34,750 nucleotides of DNA from a virus (taxonomy: Duplodnaviria > Caudoviricetes): positions 1 to 34,750 of IMG/VR virus record IMGVR_UViG_3300046779_000606; one strand, 5' to 3'. Within the stretch, counting starts at the first letter, position 1. Each line of letters starts with the position of its first letter. Below the pieces are notes generated by a model that saw nothing but the letters and a program-made list of their open reading frames with translations, did no database searches and had not been told where the DNA came from. Below, one piece after another: positions 9,825-28,154 of the stretch. The translations under genes were made by a program, and so were the position numbers.

Positions 9825-11027
9825 TCAAACACTTACAAGTTCAGCCTTTCTACCTGTAAAATCTTCCCAACGCTTGACGATAACGTCACAATATTTAGGG
9901 TCTAACTCCATAAGTCTTGCTTTTCTACCTATCTTTTCACAAGCAATTAAAGTTGAGCCTGATCCGCCAAATAAGTCTAATACGACATCCATACCTTTAG
10001 AACTATTATTTATAGCTTCTTGAGGTAAAGCTACAGGTTTTTGAGTAGGATGCACATAACTAGCTTGAGCGTCTCTGCCTATTTTCCATATTGTTGTTTT
10101 AGTCCTGTCGCCACAAAAGAAATGTTTGCCTGATCCTTCTTTCCAACCATATAGGATAGGCTCATGTTGCGCTCTGTAATCTTGCCAACCCATGCCTGCT
10201 GATTGCTTCATCCATATAATAGTAGATGATTTTTTAAATTGTTCAGCAAAAGTTTTCTCAAAAGCTAATTTAGGGCCTGATTGACTGTCAGGATGACATA
10301 CATAAATACAAGCTAATGGCTTCATGTAAGTATGATAAGTGGTAAATATATCTCTGCAAAATTGCTCAAATTGACTGTCAGACATATCGTCATTTTTAAT
10401 AGTGCCTAAATTATTAGCGCCTCTGCCTGAATAAGCAACATTGTATGGTGGGTCAGTAAATACTAAATCTGCTAAATCACCATTCATAAGCTTTTCTGCA
10501 TCGTCTAGGCTTGCGCTATCGCCACACATAAGTCGATGATCGCCTAATTGATATATGTCGCCTAATTTGGTTTTAGGCTCTTCAGGTAATTCAGGAGTTG
10601 CATCCTCGTCAGTCAAACCTTCTATTTGTTCAGGCTGCAATATATTGGCTAATTCATCTGCATTAAAACCTGTTAAATTTAGGTCAAAACCCAATTCTTT
10701 TAGGTCGGCTAGTTCAATAGACAATAGATTAGTATCCCAATCAGAGTTTAAGGCTAGTTTATTGTCGGCAATAATTAAAGCCTTACGTTGCTCTTTGGAT
10801 AGGTGTGCTAATTCAATTACAGGGACTTCGGTCATTCCTAGTTTCTTTGCTGCCATAATACGACCATGGCCTGCAATAATACCGTTATCACCGTCAACCA
10901 ATATAGGGTTAGTCCAGCCAAACTCTTTTATTGAGGCGGCTATTTGGCTTACTTGGTCGTCAGAGTGCTTCCTGGAATTGTTAATATACGGAATTAGATC
11001 CGCTAACAAACGCTTCTCGATTTGCAT
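9825..11027 (-). CDS. ParB-like N-terminal domain fused to N6A/N4C DNA methyltransferase
   Basis: ParB motifs FGWTNPILVD...AGHGR...ADNKL; MTase motifs TDPPY, HPTQKP, DLFGGSGST. Confidence 0.9.
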   Translation of the reverse strand: MQIEKRLLADLIPYINNSRKHSDDQVSQIAASIKEFGWTNPILVDGDNGIIAGHGRIMAAKKLGMTEVPVIELAHLSKEQRKALIIADNKLALNSDWDTNLLSIELADLKELGFDLNLTGFNADELANILQPEQIEGLTDEDATPELPEEPKTKLGDIYQLGDHRLMCGDSASLDDAEKLMNGDLADLVFTDPPYNVAYSGRGANNLGTIKNDDMSDSQFEQFCRDIFTTYHTYMKPLACIYVCHPDSQSGPKLAFEKTFAEQFKKSSTIIWMKQSAGMGWQDYRAQHEPILYGWKEGSGKHFFCGDRTKTTIWKIGRDAQASYVHPTQKPVALPQEAINNSSKGMDVVLDLFGGSGSTLIACEKIGRKARLMELDPKYCDVIVKRWEDFTGRKAELVSV

Positions 11028-11271: not shown

Positions 11272-11430
11272 TTATTTTACTCTTTTTTTTGCTGTTTTTG
11301 CAGCCTCTTTGAAAGCTTCAGCAGTAGGCGCGCCTTTTGTGCCTGGCTTTCTCATCGTTTCTTTACTGCCATGCTTAATTCTCTCTTGTTTAGCATGGAT
11401 GTTTGCGTATAAACCTGGTTTAGTTGCCAT
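11272..11430 (-). CDS. Small basic phage protein (52 aa), not in ORF track
   Basis: MATKPGLYANIHAKQERIKHGSKETMRKPGTKGAPTAEAFKEAAKTAKKRVK with a GAGGA RBS. The GLYANIHAK...MRKPG.KGAPT pattern is recognised from other phages. Confidence 0.75.
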   Translation of the reverse strand: MATKPGLYANIHAKQERIKHGSKETMRKPGTKGAPTAEAFKEAAKTAKKRVK

Positions 11431-11725
11431 TCTCTTCCTCCTCAATAAAACATACGTCTTGCCAAGACATTATAAGATACTTTTCACCGTTGTCGGTCAC
11501 TTGTTGGTATTTTAAATATTCGTCTTTACCCATAGTGCCAAATCTAACTTTGTCGCCTACGTTAACAGGCATAGGTTCATACCTGCCTTCTTTTATTTTT
11601 TTACCTTGTCCCACTGCAACAACTGTTCCCATATTATATTCCTCGCTCATAATAAAGCCAGGGATAACAGACTTCTCGCGCTCAATAGGTTTTACCAATA
11701 TTTTGTCGCCAAACGGTCTAATCAT
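11420..11725 (-). CDS. groES: Co-chaperonin GroES (Cpn10)
   Basis: IRPFGDKILVK...GTVVAVGQG...VNVGDKV...GEKYLIM. Confidence 0.88.
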   Translation of the reverse strand: MIRPFGDKILVKPIEREKSVIPGFIMSEEYNMGTVVAVGQGKKIKEGRYEPMPVNVGDKVRFGTMGKDEYLKYQQVTDNGEKYLIMSWQDVCFIEEEENGN

Positions 11726-19451: not shown

Positions 19452-19561
19452 AAATATTTGATATAGTAATCAAAGTTTTAATGTTTTTTGGTTTTGTCGG
19501 TTTGTTAATCGGCATTTTTTTTATGCTTGAACTTTTATTTGGAACTCATATATGTCATTAA
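19448..19561 (+). CDS. Small membrane peptide (37 aa)
   Basis: MKIFDIVIKVLMFFGFVGLLIGIFFMLELLFGTHICH; overlaps both neighbours. Confidence 0.55.
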   Translation: MKIFDIVIKVLMFFGFVGLLIGIFFMLELLFGTHICH

Positions 19562-20766
19562 GAAAAGAGCAATTGTTGGAGGCGGTTGAAGCTTTTAATA
19601 AGACAGGAAGTGAAACTAAAGCAGCAGAGTTACTAGGTATTAAAAGAGCTTGTTTGCAGGGCAGGTTAAAGGCAGCAAAACTAGCCAACTTATTTAAAGC
19701 GTTACCACCTGAAACACAACTCCCACCTGAAATAGCTTTAAAAGATAAAATAAGAACTCTGGAAGCTCAAATAGCTTCATTCAATCGTGACGTATTAAGT
19801 GAAAATTACGTTAAGTCTAAAATTCTTAAAATGGCGGAAAAAAAACCGTCACCACCTAGCTGGCTAATAAAACCAAGTGCTAGTAAATCTGCTCCAGGCG
19901 TTCCGACACTATTTGCTTCAGATTGGCATTGGGGAGAGAACGTAGACCCTAATCAAATTAATAATGTCAATTCATATAATATGAAAATAGCTCACAAACG
20001 AGCCAAAAAAATGATAGAAGTGGCTATTGATTTATTAAATAATCACATGGTCAACCCTAAATATCCAGGCATAGTATTTGCGCTAGGCGGCGATATGGTG
20101 TCAGGCGATATTCACGAGGAACTTATGGCCACCAACGATGCCGAGATTATGCCTGTGGTTATAGACTTATTTGGTGTGTTAATTTGGTGTATATCTACCC
20201 TGGCGGATCAATTTGGAAAAGTCTTTGTGCCATGCGTAGGCGGTAACCATGGCCGCAATACCCACAAAATTAGAAACAAAGGCCGTAACTTTACGTCTTT
20301 TGATTGGCTAACTTATCAATTCCTAGCCAAACATTTTGAAACCGATAACCGAGTATCTTTCCACATACCTGACGGCCCTGACGCTATATATGCTATTTAC
20401 AACCATAAATACCTATTAACCCATGGCGATCAGTTTAGAGGCGGTGACGGCGTTATTGGTGCTTTAGGGCCTATCATAAGAGGCGACCATAAAAAGCGTT
20501 CTCGTAACGCTCAAATAGACATGGAATACGATACTATGATTATTGGCCATTTTCACCAGCTAATACAATTAGAGCGTTTAATAGTAAACGGCTCTTTAAA
20601 AGGCTATTGTGAATACGCTTACAGTAATAACTTTGGTTTTGAACCGCCAAGGCAAGCTTTATGGATAACGCATCCATATCATGGCATAACATTTTCTATG
20701 CCTGTCAACGTGGATGTATCTTTTGAAAATTCAGATAAATCAGAATGGGTAAGCTGGAAAGGTTAA
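19552..20766 (+). CDS. Calcineurin-like metallophosphoesterase with N-terminal HTH and coiled coil
   Basis: SDWH, GGDMVSG, GNHGR, THGD, GHFH; N-terminal TKAAELLGIKRACLQGRL. Confidence 0.85.
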   Translation: MSLRKEQLLEAVEAFNKTGSETKAAELLGIKRACLQGRLKAAKLANLFKALPPETQLPPEIALKDKIRTLEAQIASFNRDVLSENYVKSKILKMAEKKPSPPSWLIKPSASKSAPGVPTLFASDWHWGENVDPNQINNVNSYNMKIAHKRAKKMIEVAIDLLNNHMVNPKYPGIVFALGGDMVSGDIHEELMATNDAEIMPVVIDLFGVLIWCISTLADQFGKVFVPCVGGNHGRNTHKIRNKGRNFTSFDWLTYQFLAKHFETDNRVSFHIPDGPDAIYAIYNHKYLLTHGDQFRGGDGVIGALGPIIRGDHKKRSRNAQIDMEYDTMIIGHFHQLIQLERLIVNGSLKGYCEYAYSNNFGFEPPRQALWITHPYHGITFSMPVNVDVSFENSDKSEWVSWKG

Positions 20767-21112: not shown

Positions 21113-21163
21113 AAGCCCACAAAATGCGTTTTAGGGCTATATATTACTTTTTTGGAGGAAATA

Positions 21164-21457
21164 ATGAGCAAAACTAAAAAAACAACAGAAATTAAAACAA
21201 TTTTAGATGAGCGTGGCAAGAATTATGGTGATTTTATGGGTCATGCTCGTATTACTATGAAATTAAAACTTGCAATTGAAGGACATCTTGTAGAGTGTAA
21301 TAAAATTCCAATAAAAGCAGATCAGCTGGAAGCTTTACACATGATTTGTCATAAAATTGGTCGTATAGTTAATGGTAATCCTGATTATATAGATAGCTGG
21401 ATTGATATAGCTGGTTATGCTAAATTAGTGTCAGATAGATTAGAAAATAAAGATTAA
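21164..21457 (+). CDS. DUF6378-family protein
   Basis: LDERGKNYGDF...HKIGRIVNGNPDYIDSWIDIAGYA; GGAGG RBS before ATG 21164. Confidence 0.8.
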   Translation: MSKTKKTTEIKTILDERGKNYGDFMGHARITMKLKLAIEGHLVECNKIPIKADQLEALHMICHKIGRIVNGNPDYIDSWIDIAGYAKLVSDRLENKD

Positions 21458-21503
21458 TGATTTTACTGATGTTAATATGTTCACAAAATGCCAAAATCTA
21501 TAC

Positions 21504-21525
21504 ATATACATAATGTCATGTATAT
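21504..21525. promoter_or_regulatory. Perfect 8-bp inverted repeat upstream of the pqqA RBS
   Basis: ATATACAT-AATGTC-ATGTATAT. Confidence 0.45.
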
Positions 21526-21544
21526 ATTTTAAAGGAATATAACT

Positions 21545-21616
21545 ATGTGGACTAAACCAGCAGTTACAGAAATGAGATTTGGTTTTGAAGTTACTATGTA
21601 TGTTATGAATAAATAG
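21545..21616 (+). CDS. pqqA: Pyrroloquinoline quinone precursor peptide PqqA (23 aa), not in ORF track
   Basis: MWTKPAVTEMRFGFEVTMYVMNK: W..P, R.GFEV..Y with the E-x3-Y core; AAGGA RBS at 21532-21536; tandem TAG TAG stops. Confidence 0.95.
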   Translation: MWTKPAVTEMRFGFEVTMYVMNK

Positions 21617-21665
21617 TAGCTTTAAAAGGTGGATAGCGTTCCTCAGAAAAACATATCCAATTAAG

Positions 21666-21692
21666 AAAGGGCAGAAATGCCCTTTTTTATTT
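21666..21692 (+). terminator. Rho-independent terminator ending the rightward unit (possibly bidirectional)
   Basis: AAAGGGCA-GAAA-TGCCCTTT-TTTATTT at the point where the two transcription units converge. Confidence 0.85.
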
Positions 21693-21794
21693 TACCAATA
21701 GCAAATAATATATTCTAAAGCCAAATGTAAAGGCAAATAGCACATACATAGAAGGCTAACGCTAACAGTAAACGCAACCAAAACATCTATAAAA

Positions 21795-21959
21795 TTATTT
21801 ATTTTTGTGCGCCTTTGACATTGGCATCTTTTCGTGGGCTTTTAATTCACGAGCCAAGCTTTCAACTTTAGCTTTTTCTCTTTCCCAATCCTTCATCATA
21901 GCCATTTCTTTTTTCTCGTGACGGATTGAAGGTTCGCATTTTTCTATTTTGTATTTCAT
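21795..21959 (-). CDS. Hypothetical protein (54 aa), not in ORF track
   Basis: MKYKIEKCEPSIRHEKKEMAMMKDWEREKAKVESLARELKAHEKMPMSKAHKNK; AAGGA RBS immediately after the endolysin. Confidence 0.6.
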   Translation of the reverse strand: MKYKIEKCEPSIRHEKKEMAMMKDWEREKAKVESLARELKAHEKMPMSKAHKNK

Positions 21960-21962
21960 AAT

Positions 21963-22397
21963 TTATCCTTTAAAAGTTCTAGTTCCTGATTTATCAATAA
22001 TTAAATTTTGTTTTCTTGGGTTTTCTTTATTAAATGCAATATGAACCCATCTGTCAAATTCCAAAATAAGTTGATCGTAAACGACATCACTACCCATAAG
22101 GCAAACAACAATGTCACGAGGACTACCAAAGGCAGGGCAAACAAAATCAGCAGCCAAACCTTTAGTATGTGCGCTTGTAGGTTTGCTTCCAAGTGTTGCG
22201 TTAACGAGAGAACTACGATAAGCGCTGTTAATGTGTATAGGTTTGCCAAGTATAGACCTCACCTTTTCTAAATTGTCAGCCAAAAATTTTATATTGTTTA
22301 GAATTGCAGAATCTTTAGGCATATTGTCTATTCCTAAACGATCAGCTATTTCAGAGGCATATAATTCCTCTAAAGTGAAATGCGGTGTCAACTTCAT
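21963..22397 (-). CDS. Endolysin, Peptidase M15A family
   Basis: LTPHFTLEE; INSAYR; SAHTKGLAAD; WVH zinc ligands. Confidence 0.9.
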   Translation of the reverse strand: MKLTPHFTLEELYASEIADRLGIDNMPKDSAILNNIKFLADNLEKVRSILGKPIHINSAYRSSLVNATLGSKPTSAHTKGLAADFVCPAFGSPRDIVVCLMGSDVVYDQLILEFDRWVHIAFNKENPRKQNLIIDKSGTRTFKG

Positions 22398-22783
22398 TTC
22401 TTTAATTTTTCAACAGTTCTTAATGTTCCCATACCTAATAGGCCAAGTAAGACTGTTAAAAGAGTGTCCATTTGAAATGGCACAAGAATAGGTTGCTGTC
22501 CCCATAACATGAGAAAGTAGTTAAATAAGGGTAAGATAACGAAGTGAAGTCCAAAGGCAATAGAACATATCCAGCCAACAGAAGGCCTCCAACCTGATTT
22601 AAAAAAACTGTCGGATTGAGCTTCAATAGCGTTAACTTTAATCTGTTCAATAGCAAGTTGAAATTCCTGTCCTGCTAATAATGTTTGTAGTTGTTCTTGG
22701 GCTTCTTTGCGTTTGTTTGTATCAGGAATAACTTTTTCTAATACAGAGCCAACTATGCTTACAACGGAGTCAATAATGCTCAT
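22394..22783 (-). CDS. Holin, 3TM/GTA-holin (DUF3154) family
   Basis: EAQSDSFFKSGWRPSVGWIC...LLGLLGMGTLRTVEK; adjacent to the endolysin. Confidence 0.85.
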   Translation of the reverse strand: MSIIDSVVSIVGSVLEKVIPDTNKRKEAQEQLQTLLAGQEFQLAIEQIKVNAIEAQSDSFFKSGWRPSVGWICSIAFGLHFVILPLFNYFLMLWGQQPILVPFQMDTLLTVLLGLLGMGTLRTVEKLKK

Positions 22784-23019
22784 TATTTTTTATCTTGCTT
22801 TGATTCTAATTTGTCAAATAAACGTTCAAGGATCGCTTCAATCTTGTCAAAACGTGCATTAATGTCTATTTTTTTAACATAGTTATCTGCTACGTTTAAT
22901 TCTAACTTTTGCACATCGTCTTTTAAATTTTGTGTGGCTTCCCATAATTGTCTAGCAAACCAACCAATAGCAGTTAAACCTGCACCAACTAAAATATTAA
23001 ATAAAGATTGAAATTCCAT
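22783..23019 (-). CDS. Membrane-anchored coiled-coil protein of the lysis cassette
   Basis: N-terminal TM helix plus coiled coil; start moved to ATG 23019 (AAGGA RBS). Confidence 0.6.
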   Translation of the reverse strand: MEFQSLFNILVGAGLTAIGWFARQLWEATQNLKDDVQKLELNVADNYVKKIDINARFDKIEAILERLFDKLESKQDKK

Positions 23020-23027
23020 GATAGTCC

Positions 23028-23774
23028 TTATGATTTCATTATGTAGCAAAGTGCATAGTATGGAGGAATGTTAGCACCTGTTCCGCTTGTTCCTGATGTA
23101 GCGACTGTTGTGGCTGTTGCAACAGTGACGCCTGTTGTTGCAGTAGATGTATTGCTTGATCCACTTCCACGATAACCTGGAGCTGCGCCACCGCCACCAA
23201 TAACATCTGCCGCAGCGTAAGGAACTGTATGTAAGTGACCAGGATCAGTAACTGTTGATGTAGATGTTGCTGTATGGTTATGAGATACAACAATTGCATC
23301 AGCAGAGCCGCCTGTGGCATTAACTGCGTAAGCGTCACCAGCACCAATTAAAAATCTGTTTCTTAAATCAGGTGTGCCGTTTGAGCCATCACATAAATAG
23401 TAACCTACAGGAATAGAGCCTACTGAACCTGACCATAAAAGAATCATACCTGAAGGCACAGTAGATGATGATGTAGGAATAGTTCCTAAAATACCGTAAA
23501 TATTGTCGTAGGTATAAATTAAAACGTCTGCTGAATCTCTTAAAACTAGCTTATAGTTATAGCCATAAGTTAGCCATAACTCTTCAGGAAGCTTACCGTC
23601 AGAACCTAAAATAATTGGGTTAGAGTTAGCAATTGTGCCGTCAATAGTTGTATACGACGCTAAAGGTGTGGATGAGCCAGCTTGGTAAGTGTATAACTTT
23701 CCACCTGCTAATGGCAGACCTGTAGTTCCTAAAAAGCTTATTCCGTTTCCTATTGGTGATAAATTAACTGCCAT
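23028..23774 (-). CDS. Short tail fibre: virion-anchoring N-domain plus collar-like domain
   Basis: GLPLAGGKLYTYQAG..TP...NPIIL; VPSGMILLWSG...LCDGSNGTPDLRNRF; NIPPYYALCYIMK. Confidence 0.8.
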   Translation of the reverse strand: MAVNLSPIGNGISFLGTTGLPLAGGKLYTYQAGSSTPLASYTTIDGTIANSNPIILGSDGKLPEELWLTYGYNYKLVLRDSADVLIYTYDNIYGILGTIPTSSSTVPSGMILLWSGSVGSIPVGYYLCDGSNGTPDLRNRFLIGAGDAYAVNATGGSADAIVVSHNHTATSTSTVTDPGHLHTVPYAAADVIGGGGAAPGYRGSGSSNTSTATTGVTVATATTVATSGTSGTGANIPPYYALCYIMKS

Positions 23775-23775
23775 T

Positions 23776-26013
23776 TTATTTTCCTATATCTGAAAGTTTT
23801 GTTTTTGGTTGTGGGTTTAAAGACTTTTTAACCTCTTTAGCTATTTTACGTTCTCTTAAAATTTGTGATGCAGGTTCTACAATACGGCCAACAACAGGAA
23901 TTCCTTTAATTAATTCACCGCCATATTGTTTAGCCATTGATCCAATTGCTGTAGCAGTATTAGATTCATTAACAAAAGAACCTTTTGGTCTAGCCTCTAC
24001 AATTTTTGCAACTTCAGCCAAATCTTTTAGTTGTTTAGAGTTTTCACCAAACAACACATCTAATTTTTTGTTTACATTAAGATTTTCAATTGCCTTTTGA
24101 AATTTAGCGTTACTAAAGTTTCCGCTTGCGTCTGTAGATTCTCTAATAATATAGTCCATTGTGCCTGAACGCAAATGTTCTAACGCAACAGGATCATCTT
24201 TTAATAAATCTATTGATTTTACAAAGTCGGCATTTTTAGACCTAATAACAAAGTTTTGAATAAAGTCTTTGCTATCAGCCGCTTCATTTAATACTTTGCT
24301 ATAAAGAGGATTTGATTTTTCTAGGTCAAAGTCTGCTTTAGCAGTTTTTCTAGCGTTGTCTGCCAATCCTTTTAAGTTAGCGTCAGCTTCTGTCATTGGT
24401 AAATTTTCCAATTCATTTCTTACTACGCTTAAAACGTTTTTCATATTGCCGTCACCAGCTCTATCCGCTTTACGCATTTCAGCCGCTAAATCAGAACGTA
24501 AGTTTTCAAACAAATTAAAATTCATTTCTTTAGAACCTGCTGCATAAGAATCTAATTTGTTCTTAATAGTAGAAGGTAAATAATCTAATCTATCTTCGGC
24601 TGTAAGTTTCTCAATAGCGTTATTAGCAAACTTTTTACCATCAATAGGAAACTTACCGCCAGCTGCATCTTCTAACGCTTTATAAGCTTCTTGTGTTTTA
24701 GTTTTGTTAGCTTCTTTAATAGCTTTTACTGAATCAATTAAATTAGTAGCGTCTGCAACATAATCAGTTGTTGTTACATTAGGCGCTACGTTTTGTTTAA
24801 TAATATTAGCGTTTTCTTGTAAAGCTTTGTTTTGCTCATTAAAACGTTCTGCGTGTGCTTCTTTAAATCCACGCTCATTACGTTCACGAGATATAAGCAC
24901 AGGGTTTTGTGATGCTTGACCTTCTGTTAATTCTACAGGCACAGGTAGTTCTGAAGATTTTTTAAGTCTAATGTCACGCAATACATCTTCAGATATTTGT
25001 GATTTAAATTCTTTAGGAGCTTCTACGCCTGTTTCGGTTGCTTTACGTTTAGCAAATTGTTCGGTAAATGTTTTACCAACAGGCTTACCTTTTGCTTTGC
25101 CATATACTCTACCAGCAACTTCAGGCACAACAAATGACCCTGCATTAATAATGTTTTGCACATCTTCGGTTGCCATGCCTGTGTTTTTAGCAATCCAATC
25201 TGCACCTTTTTCAACGTTTCTACCAATAAAATCCATTACTTTGTTTACAGGTGCATTTGCATATTCTTCTGTTCCAGCAAGACCTGTCATTTTTGCAAAT
25301 GGGCTTTTAAAACCTTCAGAATAAACGTCTGCAATTTTTCTAGCCTCTTCAGGTGTCTTTTTTAGGCCATATCTTGCAGATGTATAAGCACCAATGTCTG
25401 CAACTGTAGCAGCTAAATTAGGAATAACATCTGCCAATGCTGTTGTTGAAGCGCCAACTGTAGTTTTCTGTGGTTGAGGAGCTACCGCTTTAATTACGTC
25501 TTGTTTAGTTTGAGTAACTGATTTTTTTGCAACCTCTTTAGGTTCAACAGTAACTTCAGGTTCTTTTGTTAAAAAGCTAACAAACTCATCCGTAGGTTGC
25601 TCTTGCGATTGCGGTGTGGGTTGTTGTGTTGTAGTTTGAGGTGTGCCTTTTAATTTTTTAAGGCCTTGCTCTTGTAAAATAATAGGGCCACTAATAACGT
25701 GACGAATAGTAGGATTAGAAAGGTCAATTTCTTCATCAGGTTTAATTCCTGTTCTTTGAGATACGTTTTTTATGTATGCTTCGGTGTCGTTTTCAGAAGG
25801 CGGCGCCCATCTAGATATAACTTCTCGTAATGTTTTTAATTTGTGCTTTGAGCCGTAAATTCTTAATTGATCGTCAACAGCTTTAATACCTGCTTCAGGC
25901 GTGTCAAATTGTTGAAACCCTGTGGAGCTACCAACAGGTCTTATGTTGCCAACATTAGTAGGCGTGGGTGATTTGCTTGCGCTACCTGTTAGAAATTGAA
26001 CGAATTCATCCAT
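23776..26013 (-). CDS. Large DNA ejection/internal virion protein with N-terminal putative muralytic domain
   Basis: NVGNIR...F..FDTPEAGI.A...I.RWAPPSENDT.AY followed by a helical body; P22 gp16-like position. Confidence 0.65.
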   Translation of the reverse strand: MDEFVQFLTGSASKSPTPTNVGNIRPVGSSTGFQQFDTPEAGIKAVDDQLRIYGSKHKLKTLREVISRWAPPSENDTEAYIKNVSQRTGIKPDEEIDLSNPTIRHVISGPIILQEQGLKKLKGTPQTTTQQPTPQSQEQPTDEFVSFLTKEPEVTVEPKEVAKKSVTQTKQDVIKAVAPQPQKTTVGASTTALADVIPNLAATVADIGAYTSARYGLKKTPEEARKIADVYSEGFKSPFAKMTGLAGTEEYANAPVNKVMDFIGRNVEKGADWIAKNTGMATEDVQNIINAGSFVVPEVAGRVYGKAKGKPVGKTFTEQFAKRKATETGVEAPKEFKSQISEDVLRDIRLKKSSELPVPVELTEGQASQNPVLISRERNERGFKEAHAERFNEQNKALQENANIIKQNVAPNVTTTDYVADATNLIDSVKAIKEANKTKTQEAYKALEDAAGGKFPIDGKKFANNAIEKLTAEDRLDYLPSTIKNKLDSYAAGSKEMNFNLFENLRSDLAAEMRKADRAGDGNMKNVLSVVRNELENLPMTEADANLKGLADNARKTAKADFDLEKSNPLYSKVLNEAADSKDFIQNFVIRSKNADFVKSIDLLKDDPVALEHLRSGTMDYIIRESTDASGNFSNAKFQKAIENLNVNKKLDVLFGENSKQLKDLAEVAKIVEARPKGSFVNESNTATAIGSMAKQYGGELIKGIPVVGRIVEPASQILRERKIAKEVKKSLNPQPKTKLSDIGK

Positions 26014-27386
26014 TATAGTGAACCTGTTTCCTCAAGTTTTTTAATATTCATGTATTTTTCAATAAATACTTTACGTTCTTTTTCGCCTTTAGGAAACAAT
26101 CTAGCTTTTGCAGCTTCTTTGTCTTTAGCAGTTAAATCAGGGTCTTTTGCTATGTTATACAACTCAAATATTTTAGAGTCGGCATTTTTAGACCACATTT
26201 GTTGAAAAGCTTTAAAGTTATTATCACCAAATCCTTGGCTAAACTTTTGAGCCGCAGTAGCTTTTAAATCAAGTTCTGTCATATCAGCTTGCGCTCTATT
26301 AATAATGTTAAGTAATACTTTTGGAGGATATGTTTCATCGCCATTAGCCATTCTAGTTAGCTGTTGGCCTGCTACAGTATCCAACGATCCACCTTTGGCT
26401 TGAATATTAGATATTTGAACGTTAGCTAAATCTTTAGAGAGTTGTTTGTATTTAATTCCCATCTCTGTGCCTAAAAATGTGGATAAGTTTCTGCCTACCA
26501 TTCCTGGAAAACCAGCACCTTGCGCCCATTCCTCTTTTTCTAATTCTTTAGCAACTTGTTTTGCTTCATTAAGATTTCTGCGATCAGTAGTTAAATTAGC
26601 TTGTCTATCAACTAAAATATTTCTATTTTTAAAGCCAGCGTCTTGGTCAACTTTTTCAGTAGGGCCATAAGGTGTAATTGTTGTTGGTGTTCTTACAGGG
26701 TAAGGTAATTGTGATGGTTGGCTATGAGCAGGTTTATTCATGTTTTCCATGTTACCTTTTAAGGTATTTGGAGTTACAGGCGCATTTTCATTAGCTCCTT
26801 TTGGAGTATTTTCAGTTACGGGCAATGTTTCAACTTGTGGTAATTGTGTTGAGTAAACACCTGCTGGAGCTAATTTTTCTATTTGGCCTAAAGCGCCAAC
26901 AGAACGAGTTAAACCTTGTGCAAGCCAAGCTCTATAATCATTAACGCTGCCTTTTTCAGGAAGGCCTGATAATGTTTGATTTAATGATTGCTCGTTACCA
27001 CCAGCATTTTTATTTAATTCAGTAGCTCTTTTAACAATATCGTCACGAGTTAAATCAGGTTTGGTGATTAAAGTGGATATATTTTGAATTAAATTTTCTG
27101 CGTGTTTTTTAGTATTTTCTAATTGTTGTGTGTTTAATTGTGTGCCAGCAGATTCAGTAATATATTGTTGTTGTTGGATTTTAGGTTGTAATGTTTTCTT
27201 TGCCAATTCTTCTGCGGCCAAGTTTTGCTCTAATACAGATTGAGCTTGTTGAAGTTCAATAGGATTTAGCTTTTGTCTTTGTTTGTAATCTTGAGCGCCA
27301 CGAGCAACACTTAACATATCTGCTAAAGACATTTGTTGTGGTGTATTAACCTTTAAAGCAATACTAGGGTCTATATTAAAAGCCAT
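26013..27386 (-). CDS. DNA ejection protein (P22 gp20-like position)
   Basis: Gln-rich and helical; synteny. Confidence 0.55.
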   Translation of the reverse strand: MAFNIDPSIALKVNTPQQMSLADMLSVARGAQDYKQRQKLNPIELQQAQSVLEQNLAAEELAKKTLQPKIQQQQYITESAGTQLNTQQLENTKKHAENLIQNISTLITKPDLTRDDIVKRATELNKNAGGNEQSLNQTLSGLPEKGSVNDYRAWLAQGLTRSVGALGQIEKLAPAGVYSTQLPQVETLPVTENTPKGANENAPVTPNTLKGNMENMNKPAHSQPSQLPYPVRTPTTITPYGPTEKVDQDAGFKNRNILVDRQANLTTDRRNLNEAKQVAKELEKEEWAQGAGFPGMVGRNLSTFLGTEMGIKYKQLSKDLANVQISNIQAKGGSLDTVAGQQLTRMANGDETYPPKVLLNIINRAQADMTELDLKATAAQKFSQGFGDNNFKAFQQMWSKNADSKIFELYNIAKDPDLTAKDKEAAKARLFPKGEKERKVFIEKYMNIKKLEETGSL

Positions 27387-27395
27387 GATCTATCC

Positions 27396-28154
27396 TTATT
27401 GTCCTAAAATACGACTTAAAGCAAACATATTTCCTGCATTTGTTAACGCTCCTGAATAAGCGTTTGCTGCACCAATTCTACCAGCTGCTTCAGCCGCTGC
27501 GCCACCTGTAGCAAGATTAGCTACGTTTGTCCCATAGTTTTGAAGTGCATTTCCTGTTTGGCCTACGGCAGTTTGACCAATACCAGCTATGCCAGCTAAT
27601 GTATTGTAAATATTACCACGTTGGGTTTGAAATTGATTAAAAGCATTACCGTAAGCATTTTGTGCAAAGTTTTGAGTGTAATCTTGCAATCCTGTTAAAG
27701 CATTTCCACCAACAAGACCGCCTGTAGCATTTAGTTGATTTCTTAATGCTCCTTGACCTTGACCTAATTGAAATGCATAGTTAGGCGCTAAATATTGATT
27801 AAGATCAAGATTAGTAAATTCTTTTGTCAGATAACCTGTGCCTGTTCCTGTTCCAATAGGCTGGCCTTCTACGTCATATTTAGTATATTGACCTGGAAGT
27901 AAAGAACCTATTTGATTTAATGCGGTGTAACCCGTTCCTCTAAATGGTGCTTGTTGTTTGTTTTGAATATCAAATATTTCTTTTTGAACCCTAGCTTGTT
28001 GAGCTGCTGCATCTGCTTGAATTTGAGCCGCATCCTCTGCTGCGCTGGCTGACATAGCGCCACCAATTAAAGAACCGCCTACAGCAATAGCAGCCGAGAA
28101 CGGATCGTTATAGCCTGGATGTTTTAAAATACCTACAAATCTTGGATTAAACAT
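27396..28154 (-). CDS. DNA transfer/pilot protein (P22 gp7-like)
   Basis: Ala/Gly-rich N-terminus; PNYAFQLGQG...GGLVGGNAL..LQDY.Q. Confidence 0.7.
   Translation of the reverse strand: MFNPRFVGILKHPGYNDPFSAAIAVGGSLIGGAMSASAAEDAAQIQADAAAQQARVQKEIFDIQNKQQAPFRGTGYTALNQIGSLLPGQYTKYDVEGQPIGTGTGTGYLTKEFTNLDLNQYLAPNYAFQLGQGQGALRNQLNATGGLVGGNALTGLQDYTQNFAQNAYGNAFNQFQTQRGNIYNTLAGIAGIGQTAVGQTGNALQNYGTNVANLATGGAAAEAAGRIGAANAYSGALTNAGNMFALSRILGQ

What the first reader, a model, noticed from the sequence alone, without database searches (positions are those of the whole stretch)
21459..21692. Phage-encoded PqqA: a stand-alone cofactor-precursor peptide as an auxiliary metabolic gene
Seen: a 72-bp ORF below the track cut-off encodes MWTKPAVTEMRFGFEVTMYVMNK, with an RBS, tandem stops, a downstream hairpin and a terminator. 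No pqqB-E is present in the window. Established: PqqA is the ribosomal peptide whose Glu and Tyr (E-x3-Y) are cross-linked by PqqE/PqqD and matured by PqqB/C into PQQ, the cofactor of the methanol dehydrogenases MxaF and XoxF; one peptide is consumed per PQQ. Inference: the phage supplies the stoichiometric substrate to the host pathway to sustain methanol oxidation during infection at very small genome cost, or alternatively titrates PqqD/E. Phage-borne pqqA may already have been noted in metagenome surveys, so novelty needs a literature check.
Basis: partly seen in the sequence, partly recalled or inferred. Interest (0 to 1): 0.9.

Follow-up and report, generated by a model that had tools for sequence, protein, structure and literature searches.

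The report
Phage pqqA cassette with host operator

Summary
Confirmed. Window 21545-21616 encodes a 23-residue PqqA (Pfam and TIGRFAM above cut-off, Glu15/Tyr19 intact) in a P22-like phage with no pqqB-E. It sits in a ~240-bp cassette (21454-21692): host-type palindrome, predicted -10, 5' hairpin, RBS, gene, terminator-like hairpin. The cassette is 79% identical to one in the unrelated cultured siphovirus P19250A and is cleanly absent from a complete relative. Not a chimera.

The gene is intact and unannotated in all 9 cultured Methylophilaceae phage records returned (6 named phages), and about 2,000 IMG/VR stretches match PqqA patterns; none of 204 viral loci with flanks had pqqB-E nearby. The palindrome precedes host pqqA and pqqB genes, not methanol dehydrogenase genes.

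Best reading: the phage supplies the one consumed part of PQQ synthesis to host enzymes (inferred, untested). Phage pqqA was reported in 2020 (Lake Baikal), and that paper said P19250A lacks such genes. I found no paper on its presence in the cultured phages or on the palindrome. This scan noted phage pqqA before on other DNA (210 findings, at least 163 genomes).

The parts
21454..21470 (+). Operator-like 17-bp imperfect palindrome (7-3-7). Its TAA is also the stop codon of the upstream DUF6378 gene. Left end of the cassette.
   Evidence: Best site in the whole window (13.0 bits) under a matrix trained on host pqqA upstream regions only. Similarity to P19250A and to 5 of 6 IMG/VR cassettes begins at 21454, to the sixth at 21455. 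Function inferred.
21492..21497 (+). Predicted -10 hexamer (CAAAAT), 21 nt after the palindrome
   Evidence: A -10-like hexamer lies 21 nt after the site in 23 of 61 viral upstream regions with a site; no other spacing exceeds 9 of 61. The sigma-70 scan did not list this site.
21504..21525 (+). Predicted 5' leader hairpin (8-bp stem)
   Evidence: Folds at -5.3 kcal/mol; present with few changes in P19250A and 6 IMG/VR cassettes, but the scan pattern required most of it.
21532..21536 (+). Ribosome-binding site AAGGA
   Evidence: Sequence; an RBS-like motif precedes 120 of 120 viral homologues.
21545..21616 (+). pqqA, 23-residue PQQ precursor peptide, Glu15-x3-Tyr19
   Evidence: PF08042 and TIGR02107 above cut-off.
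21630..21659 (+). Weak 3' hairpin, related to elements in P19250A and other phage cassettes
   Evidence: -6.1 kcal/mol; its core motif occurs in 3 of 120 viral and 0 of 132 host downstream regions.
21662..21693 (+). Terminator-like hairpin with A run before and T run after (likely bidirectional); right end of the cassette
   Evidence: -16.0 kcal/mol; not listed by the terminator scan; similarity to P19250A ends at 21692.
21152..21457 (+). Left flank: DUF6378 phage gene, last of the rightward early block
   Evidence: PF19905, phrog_474.
21963..22783 (-). Right flank: M15 endolysin and holin at the end of the converging late block
   Evidence: PF08291, PF11351; holin 79% identical to that of P19250A.

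Best explanation
This is an intact phage-borne pqqA in a self-contained cassette that is shared between unrelated phages; it is likely transcribed from a host-type pqq promoter and likely feeds host PqqD/E/B/C with the peptide they turn into PQQ, which would keep the host's methanol dehydrogenase supplied during infection. Shown: the gene, its purifying selection, the cassette limits, the absence of pqqB-E, and the palindrome's place before host pqq genes. Inferred: the host is a freshwater Methylophilaceae cell (Methylopumilus-like); a host activator binds the palindrome at about -42; the candidate is a NarL-family two-component system, by synteny only. Why only pqqA: PqqA is consumed one peptide per PQQ while PqqB-E are reusable catalysts (established chemistry), so the precursor would be the first part to run short when host transcription declines, and it costs 72 bp.
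For: HMM hits above cut-off. 9 of 12 phage-collection records hit are Methylophilales/Methylophilaceae phages; the 6 named phages checked all have an intact ORF with RBS. All 120 viral homologues sampled are 72 bp with an RBS-like motif, 106 distinct haplotypes; pN/pS 0.118 in the four tail codons that the search pattern did not constrain. 0 of 204 viral loci of 1.5 kb or more have a PqqB-E hit, against 26 of 30 loci from other Pseudomonadota genomes and 23 of 123 host loci of the same peptide type. PqqB in 0 of 49 and PqqC in 0 of 49 whole viral records. Methylophilaceae: 121 of 121 genomes have pqqA, 117 with two or more matches; 3-12 copies against one pqqB-G set in print (PMC4109929). Palindrome above 8 bits in 53 of 95 non-redundant viral upstream regions (shuffles 0.8) with a host-trained matrix. 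In Methylopumilus universalis it precedes all three pqqA copies and the pqqB operon. In 34 of 59 viral loci pqqA lies antisense to both neighbours, so it needs its own promoter. xoxF was often the most transcribed gene in an OM43 strain (PMC5120137).
Against: No data on expression in infected cells. The only RNA sign is one 167-nt contig at depth 3.5 in one freshwater metatranscriptome, identical over 21544-21669 but with other letters before the ATG, so from a relative. The gene is dispensable in this lineage: a complete relative with 88% terminase identity lacks it, and only 2 of 12 near-complete terminase relatives have it. Hosts already hold about three copies, so the gain from one more is unproven. 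The palindrome is absent before 7 of 7 PQQ-dehydrogenase genes checked, so the link to methanol oxidation is indirect. MEP401 and MEP402 lack the palindrome, and in Venkman the best site overlaps a reverse RBS. Overexpressing pqqABCDE in Methylovorus gave only a limited PQQ rise (as cited in PMC9851590). The host is not shown directly.
Confidence: 0.62

Rival explanations
1. The peptide is turned into PQQ, but the benefit is redox protection or another PQQ enzyme, not methanol oxidation.
For: The palindrome marks PQQ supply genes, not the dehydrogenases. An OxyR-like gene lies near pqqA in 9 of 80 host loci. Viral pqqA also comes in peptide types typical of other bacteria. PQQ's antioxidant action is recalled, not from a call.
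Against: The commonest viral type is the Methylophilaceae type (about 1,500 stretches against about 450 and 44), and these hosts carry MDH-type enzymes in 4 of 4 genomes checked. OxyR adjacency may be inherited gene order.
Confidence: 0.13
2. It is a moron that helps the cell in a prophage or carrier state, under host control, and not during lysis.
For: Own host-type promoter and terminator between converging phage blocks; lambdoid-type Sak, YqaJ, NinB and NinG genes.
Against: No integrase or repressor hit among the 50 ORFs scanned, though the record is 98% complete and small ORFs were not all scanned. The gene also sits in T4-like Melnitz and Zobellviridae phages, which are lytic types by recall.
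Confidence: 0.1
3. It is a decoy: excess peptide titrates PqqD/E, or many genome copies of the palindrome titrate the host regulator, lowering PQQ.
For: Only the precursor and one site are carried; some viral peptides have cores not seen in the host sample.
Against: The window's peptide differs by one residue from a common host form and keeps Glu15/Tyr19; a normal substrate is a poor inhibitor. Titrating the regulator would not need a conserved ORF.
Confidence: 0.07
4. It is a passenger: a short multi-copy host gene picked up often, or kept as a recombination hot spot.
For: Many insertion contexts; mixed promoters and 3' ends on near-identical coding sequences; clean absence in a relative.
Against: pN/pS 0.118 in unconstrained codons, 120 of 120 full length with RBS; nearest sampled viral copy 2 differences, nearest host copy 8; host neighbours of pqqA are not carried along. 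The pattern scan cannot see decayed copies, so decay is under-counted.
Confidence: 0.08

Closest known systems
Viral PqqA of Lake Baikal population VP_266 (Coutinho et al. 2020, PMC7678222; passages read)
   Same: Phage-encoded PqqA, predicted Methylophilaceae host, proposed to boost methanol oxidation.
   Different: That was a T4-like metagenomic phage that also encodes methanol dehydrogenase. This is a 35-kb P22-like phage with pqqA alone. The passages read describe no promoter or cassette, and state that P19250A encodes none of the AMGs reported; it does encode pqqA.
Dispersed extra pqqA copies of Methylophilaceae (PF08042, TIGR02107; Beck et al. 2014, PMC4109929, passages)
   Same: Same peptide type, stand-alone unit with RBS and terminator-like hairpin, same palindrome.
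   Different: On a phage. Hosts mostly have the strong site 44 nt before the -10 plus a weaker site 23 bp further on; the commonest viral layout, as here, has the site 21 nt before the -10. Val7 was in 0 of 132 host copies of this form sampled.
Unannotated pqqA region of cultured phage P19250A (KX815270)
   Same: 79% identical over 261 nt from palindrome to terminator, E=2e-57.
   Different: Unrelated siphovirus: no coat, portal or terminase hit from the window's proteins; different flanking genes.
Virus-encoded pqqA/D/E listed as phosphate-solubilising AMGs (PMC13188868, passages)
   Same: pqqA on viral contigs.
   Different: A list without mechanism or methylotroph link; here pqqD and pqqE are absent.
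Cyanophage psbA (recalled, no call)
   Same: Phage restocks the part of the host's energy pathway that turns over fastest.
   Different: PsbA is a protein subunit; PqqA is a consumed cofactor precursor.

Membership tests
PqqA (PF08042 / TIGR02107) | Score above curated cut-offs | tested here: met
   43.8 vs 21.1 bits; 46.5 vs 20 bits.
PqqA (PF08042 / TIGR02107) | Glu-x3-Tyr core in a peptide of about 23-29 residues with N-terminal W-x2-P | tested here: met
   Glu15 and Tyr19, Trp2 and Pro5, 23 residues; same pattern in genome copies.
PqqA (PF08042 / TIGR02107) | PqqB-E available in the same cell | tested here: inconclusive
   Absent from the phage; pqqB and pqqC present in Methylopumilus universalis; that this is the host is inferred.
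PqqA (PF08042 / TIGR02107) | Cross-linked by PqqE/PqqD and matured to PQQ | not testable with these tools
   Needs an assay.
Auxiliary metabolic gene | Host metabolic gene flanked by phage genes on a true phage contig | tested here: met
   DUF6378 on the left, endolysin and holin on the right; same order in independent contig G008, 88.7% over window 21352-27435.
Auxiliary metabolic gene | Intact, with expression signals, under purifying selection | tested here: met
Auxiliary metabolic gene | Expressed during infection | tested here: inconclusive
   One low-depth RNA contig of a relative.
Auxiliary metabolic gene | Changes host metabolism or phage yield | not testable with these tools
   Needs infection experiments.
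Host pqq regulon (palindrome) | Same site at a fixed distance from a -10 | tested here: met
   13.0 bits, best in window; 21-nt spacing.
Host pqq regulon (palindrome) | Bound by a host regulator and needed for transcription | not testable with these tools
   Candidate regulator by synteny only.

The most novel reading that the evidence does not exclude
pqqA is the signature auxiliary gene of methylotroph phages, the counterpart of psbA in cyanophages. A 240-bp cassette travels between podo-, sipho- and myoviruses and plugs into an undescribed host PQQ regulon run by a NarL-family two-component system, so that infected cells make extra cofactor precursor just when the host calls for PQQ. It has gone unseen because it is below gene-caller limits, and it could serve as a host marker for thousands of unassigned viral contigs.
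Probability: 0.4. Interest if true: 0.8.

Novelty: new variant of a known kind. Interest (0 to 1): 0.6.

Why it matters
Methylopumilus and OM43 are abundant methanol oxidisers of lakes and coasts. If their phages routinely restock PQQ, infection would sustain methanol turnover, not only end it. The gene is present and unannotated in every cultured phage of this host family that the search returned, so a proposal that rested on one metagenomic contig becomes testable in existing phage-host pairs. A phage carrying only the consumed peptide of a cofactor pathway, behind a host operator, is a very compact form of host manipulation. The palindrome and its candidate regulator also give a handle on how these bacteria control PQQ synthesis.

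Tried and rejected
Chimera: rejected. An independent IMG/VR contig is colinear across the site with the same peptide. A contig of run X4 joins the upstream phage genes to pqqA and the terminator, and one of X16 joins pqqA to the downstream genes. No single laid contig spans the whole stretch, and X1/X2 may be the source.

Rfam: no match at gathering score apart from tRNAs in other loci; only chance-level matches at the site. No tRNA in the window. Promoter/terminator scan: 4 sites against 5.9 expected, 0 terminators.

'Only Methylophilaceae phages carry pqqA': rejected; other peptide types occur in about 450 and 44 viral stretches, although 40 of 87 and 5 of 28 of these also carry the palindrome. 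'All relatives carry it': rejected.

The two Acinetobacter 'phage' hits were dropped from the cultured-phage count: the one opened is a bacterial pqqABCDE operon; the other was not opened. Palindrome before dehydrogenase genes: not found. A LysR-type T-N11-A core (motif recalled) does not fit the consensus. GroES as a host clue: best hit of 151 genomes is M. universalis but at 40% identity, too weak. RNA-labelled runs X16 and X17 may be DNA and were not used as expression evidence. The first terminase tree did not finish; the rerun used 35 rows: near-complete records and those at 77% identity or more. Plasmids gave only peptide types of other bacteria among the 20 of 47 records listed. No complex prediction: the peptide is under the tool's 30-residue size.

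Full report
Observation. The ORF is at 21545-21616 on the + strand, with an RBS and tandem TAG stops. It scores far above the curated cut-offs of PF08042 and TIGR02107 and keeps Glu15-x3-Tyr19. The window is a whole IMG/VR record, linear, 98% complete. It is a P22-like podovirus with coat, portal, terminase, NinB/NinG, Sak, YqaJ, endolysin and holin. No pqqB-E is present. pqqA lies where the rightward early block meets the converging late block.

Not a chimera. IMG/VR record G008 is colinear at 88.7% over window 21352-27435 and has the same peptide. Contigs from two other public runs link pqqA to the upstream or downstream phage genes. None of the laid contigs spans the whole stretch; they break at pqqA, where many other pqqA-bearing contigs pile up. 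Of the 8 runs holding half the words or more, 6 are labelled freshwater.

A movable cassette. Window 21454-21692 matches cultured phage P19250A (host Methylophilaceae IMCC19250) at 79% over 261 nt, while coat, portal and terminase show no match. The complete relative G012 (terminase 88%) has no pqqA: its DUF6378 gene runs straight into the sequence that follows the cassette. Six further IMG/VR contigs carry the same 5' part, five starting at the same base and one a base later, behind other upstream sequence. In run X1 a second contig shares the first 75 bases with 2 differences behind a P19250A-like upstream end. Whether G012 lost the cassette or the others gained it is not settled; carriers and G012 fall in one terminase clade.

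Distribution. tblastn of the phage collection gave 12 records. Nine are Methylophilales or Methylophilaceae phages: Venkman, P19250A, MEP301, MEP401, MEP402 and four Melnitz records. One is a spring metagenome phage; two are Acinetobacter contigs, of which the one opened is a bacterial operon. I opened one record for each of the six named phages: none annotates pqqA and each has an intact ORF with RBS. A 2023 paper lists these five as the OM43 isolates then known (PMC10580990, passages); later isolates may exist. IMG/VR pattern scans estimate about 1,500 stretches of the Methylophilaceae type (120 sampled), about 450 of an Asp-type and 44 of a GME type; these are stored stretches, not species. 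Among near-complete relatives by terminase, 2 of 12 of the window's phage and 5 of 7 of P19250A carry it; carriers are the closer ones (83% or more; 81% or more), with G012 the exception (I searched 35 of 80 and 40 of 80 records, the longer ones).

Always without its enzymes. None of 204 viral loci of 1.5 kb or more had a PqqB-E hit, against 26 of 30 loci from other Pseudomonadota genomes. PqqB was in 0 of 49 and PqqC in 0 of 49 whole viral records, most of them fragments. I scanned 93 of 146 neighbour ORFs; 55 hit PHROGs, among them major head protein, SSB, endolysin, RegA-type repressor, terminase and ribonucleotide reductase, so there are many insertion sites. All 120 sampled copies are 72 bp with an RBS-like motif; pN/pS is 0.118 in the four tail codons outside the search pattern. 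The scan cannot see decayed copies.

Host. By record titles, genome hits of this peptide type are mostly Methylophilaceae. All 121 family genomes sampled have pqqA, 117 with two or more matches; 44 of 301 phylum genomes have it, mostly once. Methylopumilus universalis (1.27 Mb) keeps three copies, all far from pqqB. Beck et al. report 3-12 pqqA copies against a single pqqB-G set (PMC4109929, passages). The stand-alone form is thus the host's own design, and the extra copies suggest that precursor dose matters. With the shared cassette and a holin 79% identical to P19250A's, a freshwater Methylophilaceae host is likely, not shown.

The palindrome. Two earlier notes of this scan gave the lead; I tested it. 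A 17-bp matrix trained on host upstream regions only (consensus CTCATGA-N3-TCATGAG) scores above 8 bits in 92 of 112 host regions (the training set) and 53 of 95 viral regions, a set that includes the window and the cultured phages; shuffles give 0.5 and 0.8. The best site in the whole window is 21454-21470 (13.0 bits), the first base of the cassette; three other sites exceed 8 bits in 34.7 kb. In hosts a -10-like hexamer follows at 44 nt (66 of 101) and a weaker second site lies 23 bp downstream. In phages the commonest spacing is 21 nt (23 of 61), as here, which would centre the site near -42, an activator position (recalled). P19250A, MEP301 and Melnitz have the site; MEP401/402 do not; Venkman's is ambiguous. 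In M. universalis the three best-scoring sites among the 26 loci scored precede two pqqA copies and the pqqB operon; the third pqqA has a two-mismatch site, and weaker sites precede a PqqU-like receptor and a PQQ-associated beta-propeller gene. The pattern has 54 matches in that genome against 19 for the control, many inside unrelated genes. It is absent before 7 of 7 PQQ-dehydrogenase genes and 28 of 28 pqqA from other phylum genomes. In three betaproteobacterial genome-bin loci (L148, L187, L203) a sensor kinase gene and a NarL-family regulator gene lie directly before a near-perfect palindrome and pqqA; the regulator has a 64-69% identical orthologue in 5 of 5 Methylophilaceae genomes. It is a candidate by synteny only.

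Mechanism. Established: PqqE with PqqD cross-links Glu and Tyr of PqqA, PqqB and PqqC mature the product, and one peptide gives one PQQ (PMC9851590 passages, and recall). Inferred: on infection the host activator and polymerase transcribe a short hairpin-capped message, and the copy number rises with phage DNA. The extra peptide would keep PQQ flowing to XoxF, whose gene was often the most transcribed in an OM43 strain (PMC5120137, passages), while host pqqA messages fade and the enzymes persist. Expression evidence is slight: one 167-nt RNA contig from a relative. Rivals are redox protection, a carrier-state benefit, a decoy role and passive carriage.

What is known. Coutinho et al. 2020 reported PqqA in a T4-like Baikal phage with methanol dehydrogenase and proposed the same role; they also wrote that P19250A encodes none of their AMGs (PMC7678222, passages). 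A 2026 paper lists viral pqqA among phosphate genes (PMC13188868, passages). Term searches of the main texts on MEP301, Melnitz, Venkman and MEP401/402 found no pqqA, nor did one on a BONCAT virome paper. A RiPP survey mentions PqqA only as host-encoded near defence systems (PMC11118758, passages). Ten library searches found nothing on pqqA in cultured methylotroph phages or on the palindrome. I read no supplements, and did not see the P19250A paper or Ge et al. 2015 on pqqA promoters; any of them may bear on novelty.

Verdict. Real and well supported as a gene and as a mobile, host-styled cassette; function inferred. The basic idea is in print. The presence in all six cultured phages, the cassette and the operator are, as far as I could search, not. 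Interest 0.6.

Noticed in passing
L148:1401-3880, L187:1-1395, L203:1452-3885; orthologues L622-L626: Sensor kinase plus NarL-family regulator directly upstream of palindrome and pqqA (followed by a probable TonB receptor in L148 and L203); regulator conserved in 5 of 5 Methylophilaceae genomes, with a palindrome-like site before the kinase in two. Candidate PQQ-regulon regulator.
   Followed up: partly
L520, L521, L528, L540, L556, L561 and others: Viral PqqA variants with Methylophilaceae-like ends but a GMEITAY core, not seen in the host samples; several keep the palindrome.
   Followed up: no
L399-L518: Large set of viral pqqA with an Asp-type core, many on contigs over 50 kb; 40 of 87 carry the palindrome, hosts unknown.
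   Followed up: partly
L008:2961-3056; L002:2067-2195: The Melnitz and MW202481 records annotate an antisense hypothetical ORF over pqqA; in Melnitz pqqA ends just before a tRNA-Leu.
   Followed up: partly
L351 (G018): A relative carries a four-to-five-residue divergent PqqA behind the same palindrome at the same site, so promoters and coding parts are swapped separately.
   Followed up: partly
window 11420-11725 (-): GroES-like gene next to the packaging block; best of 151 genomes is M. universalis at only 40%.
   Followed up: partly
window 9825-11027 (-): ParB-N domain fused to a DNA methyltransferase, just upstream of the small terminase.
   Followed up: no
window 19552-20766 (+): 404-residue nuclease/phosphoesterase-like protein (phrog_284) with a weak Fis-like N-terminal match; about 90% conserved in three relatives.
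   Followed up: no
window 21369-21385: Second palindrome-like site (11.7 bits) inside the DUF6378 gene, 85 bp upstream of the first; may be chance.
   Followed up: no
L069, L077, L105, L123, L124; L012, L075, L079, L081, L091, L129: Two other recurring 3' elements after viral pqqA, absent from host copies; no Rfam match in the loci scanned.
   Followed up: partly
L159:207-1169 and 8 other host loci: OxyR-like gene near pqqA in 9 of 80 host loci.
   Followed up: no
L009 (CAKLQF020000010.1): A record filed as Acinetobacter phage is a bacterial contig with ppk and pqqABCDE.
   Followed up: yes
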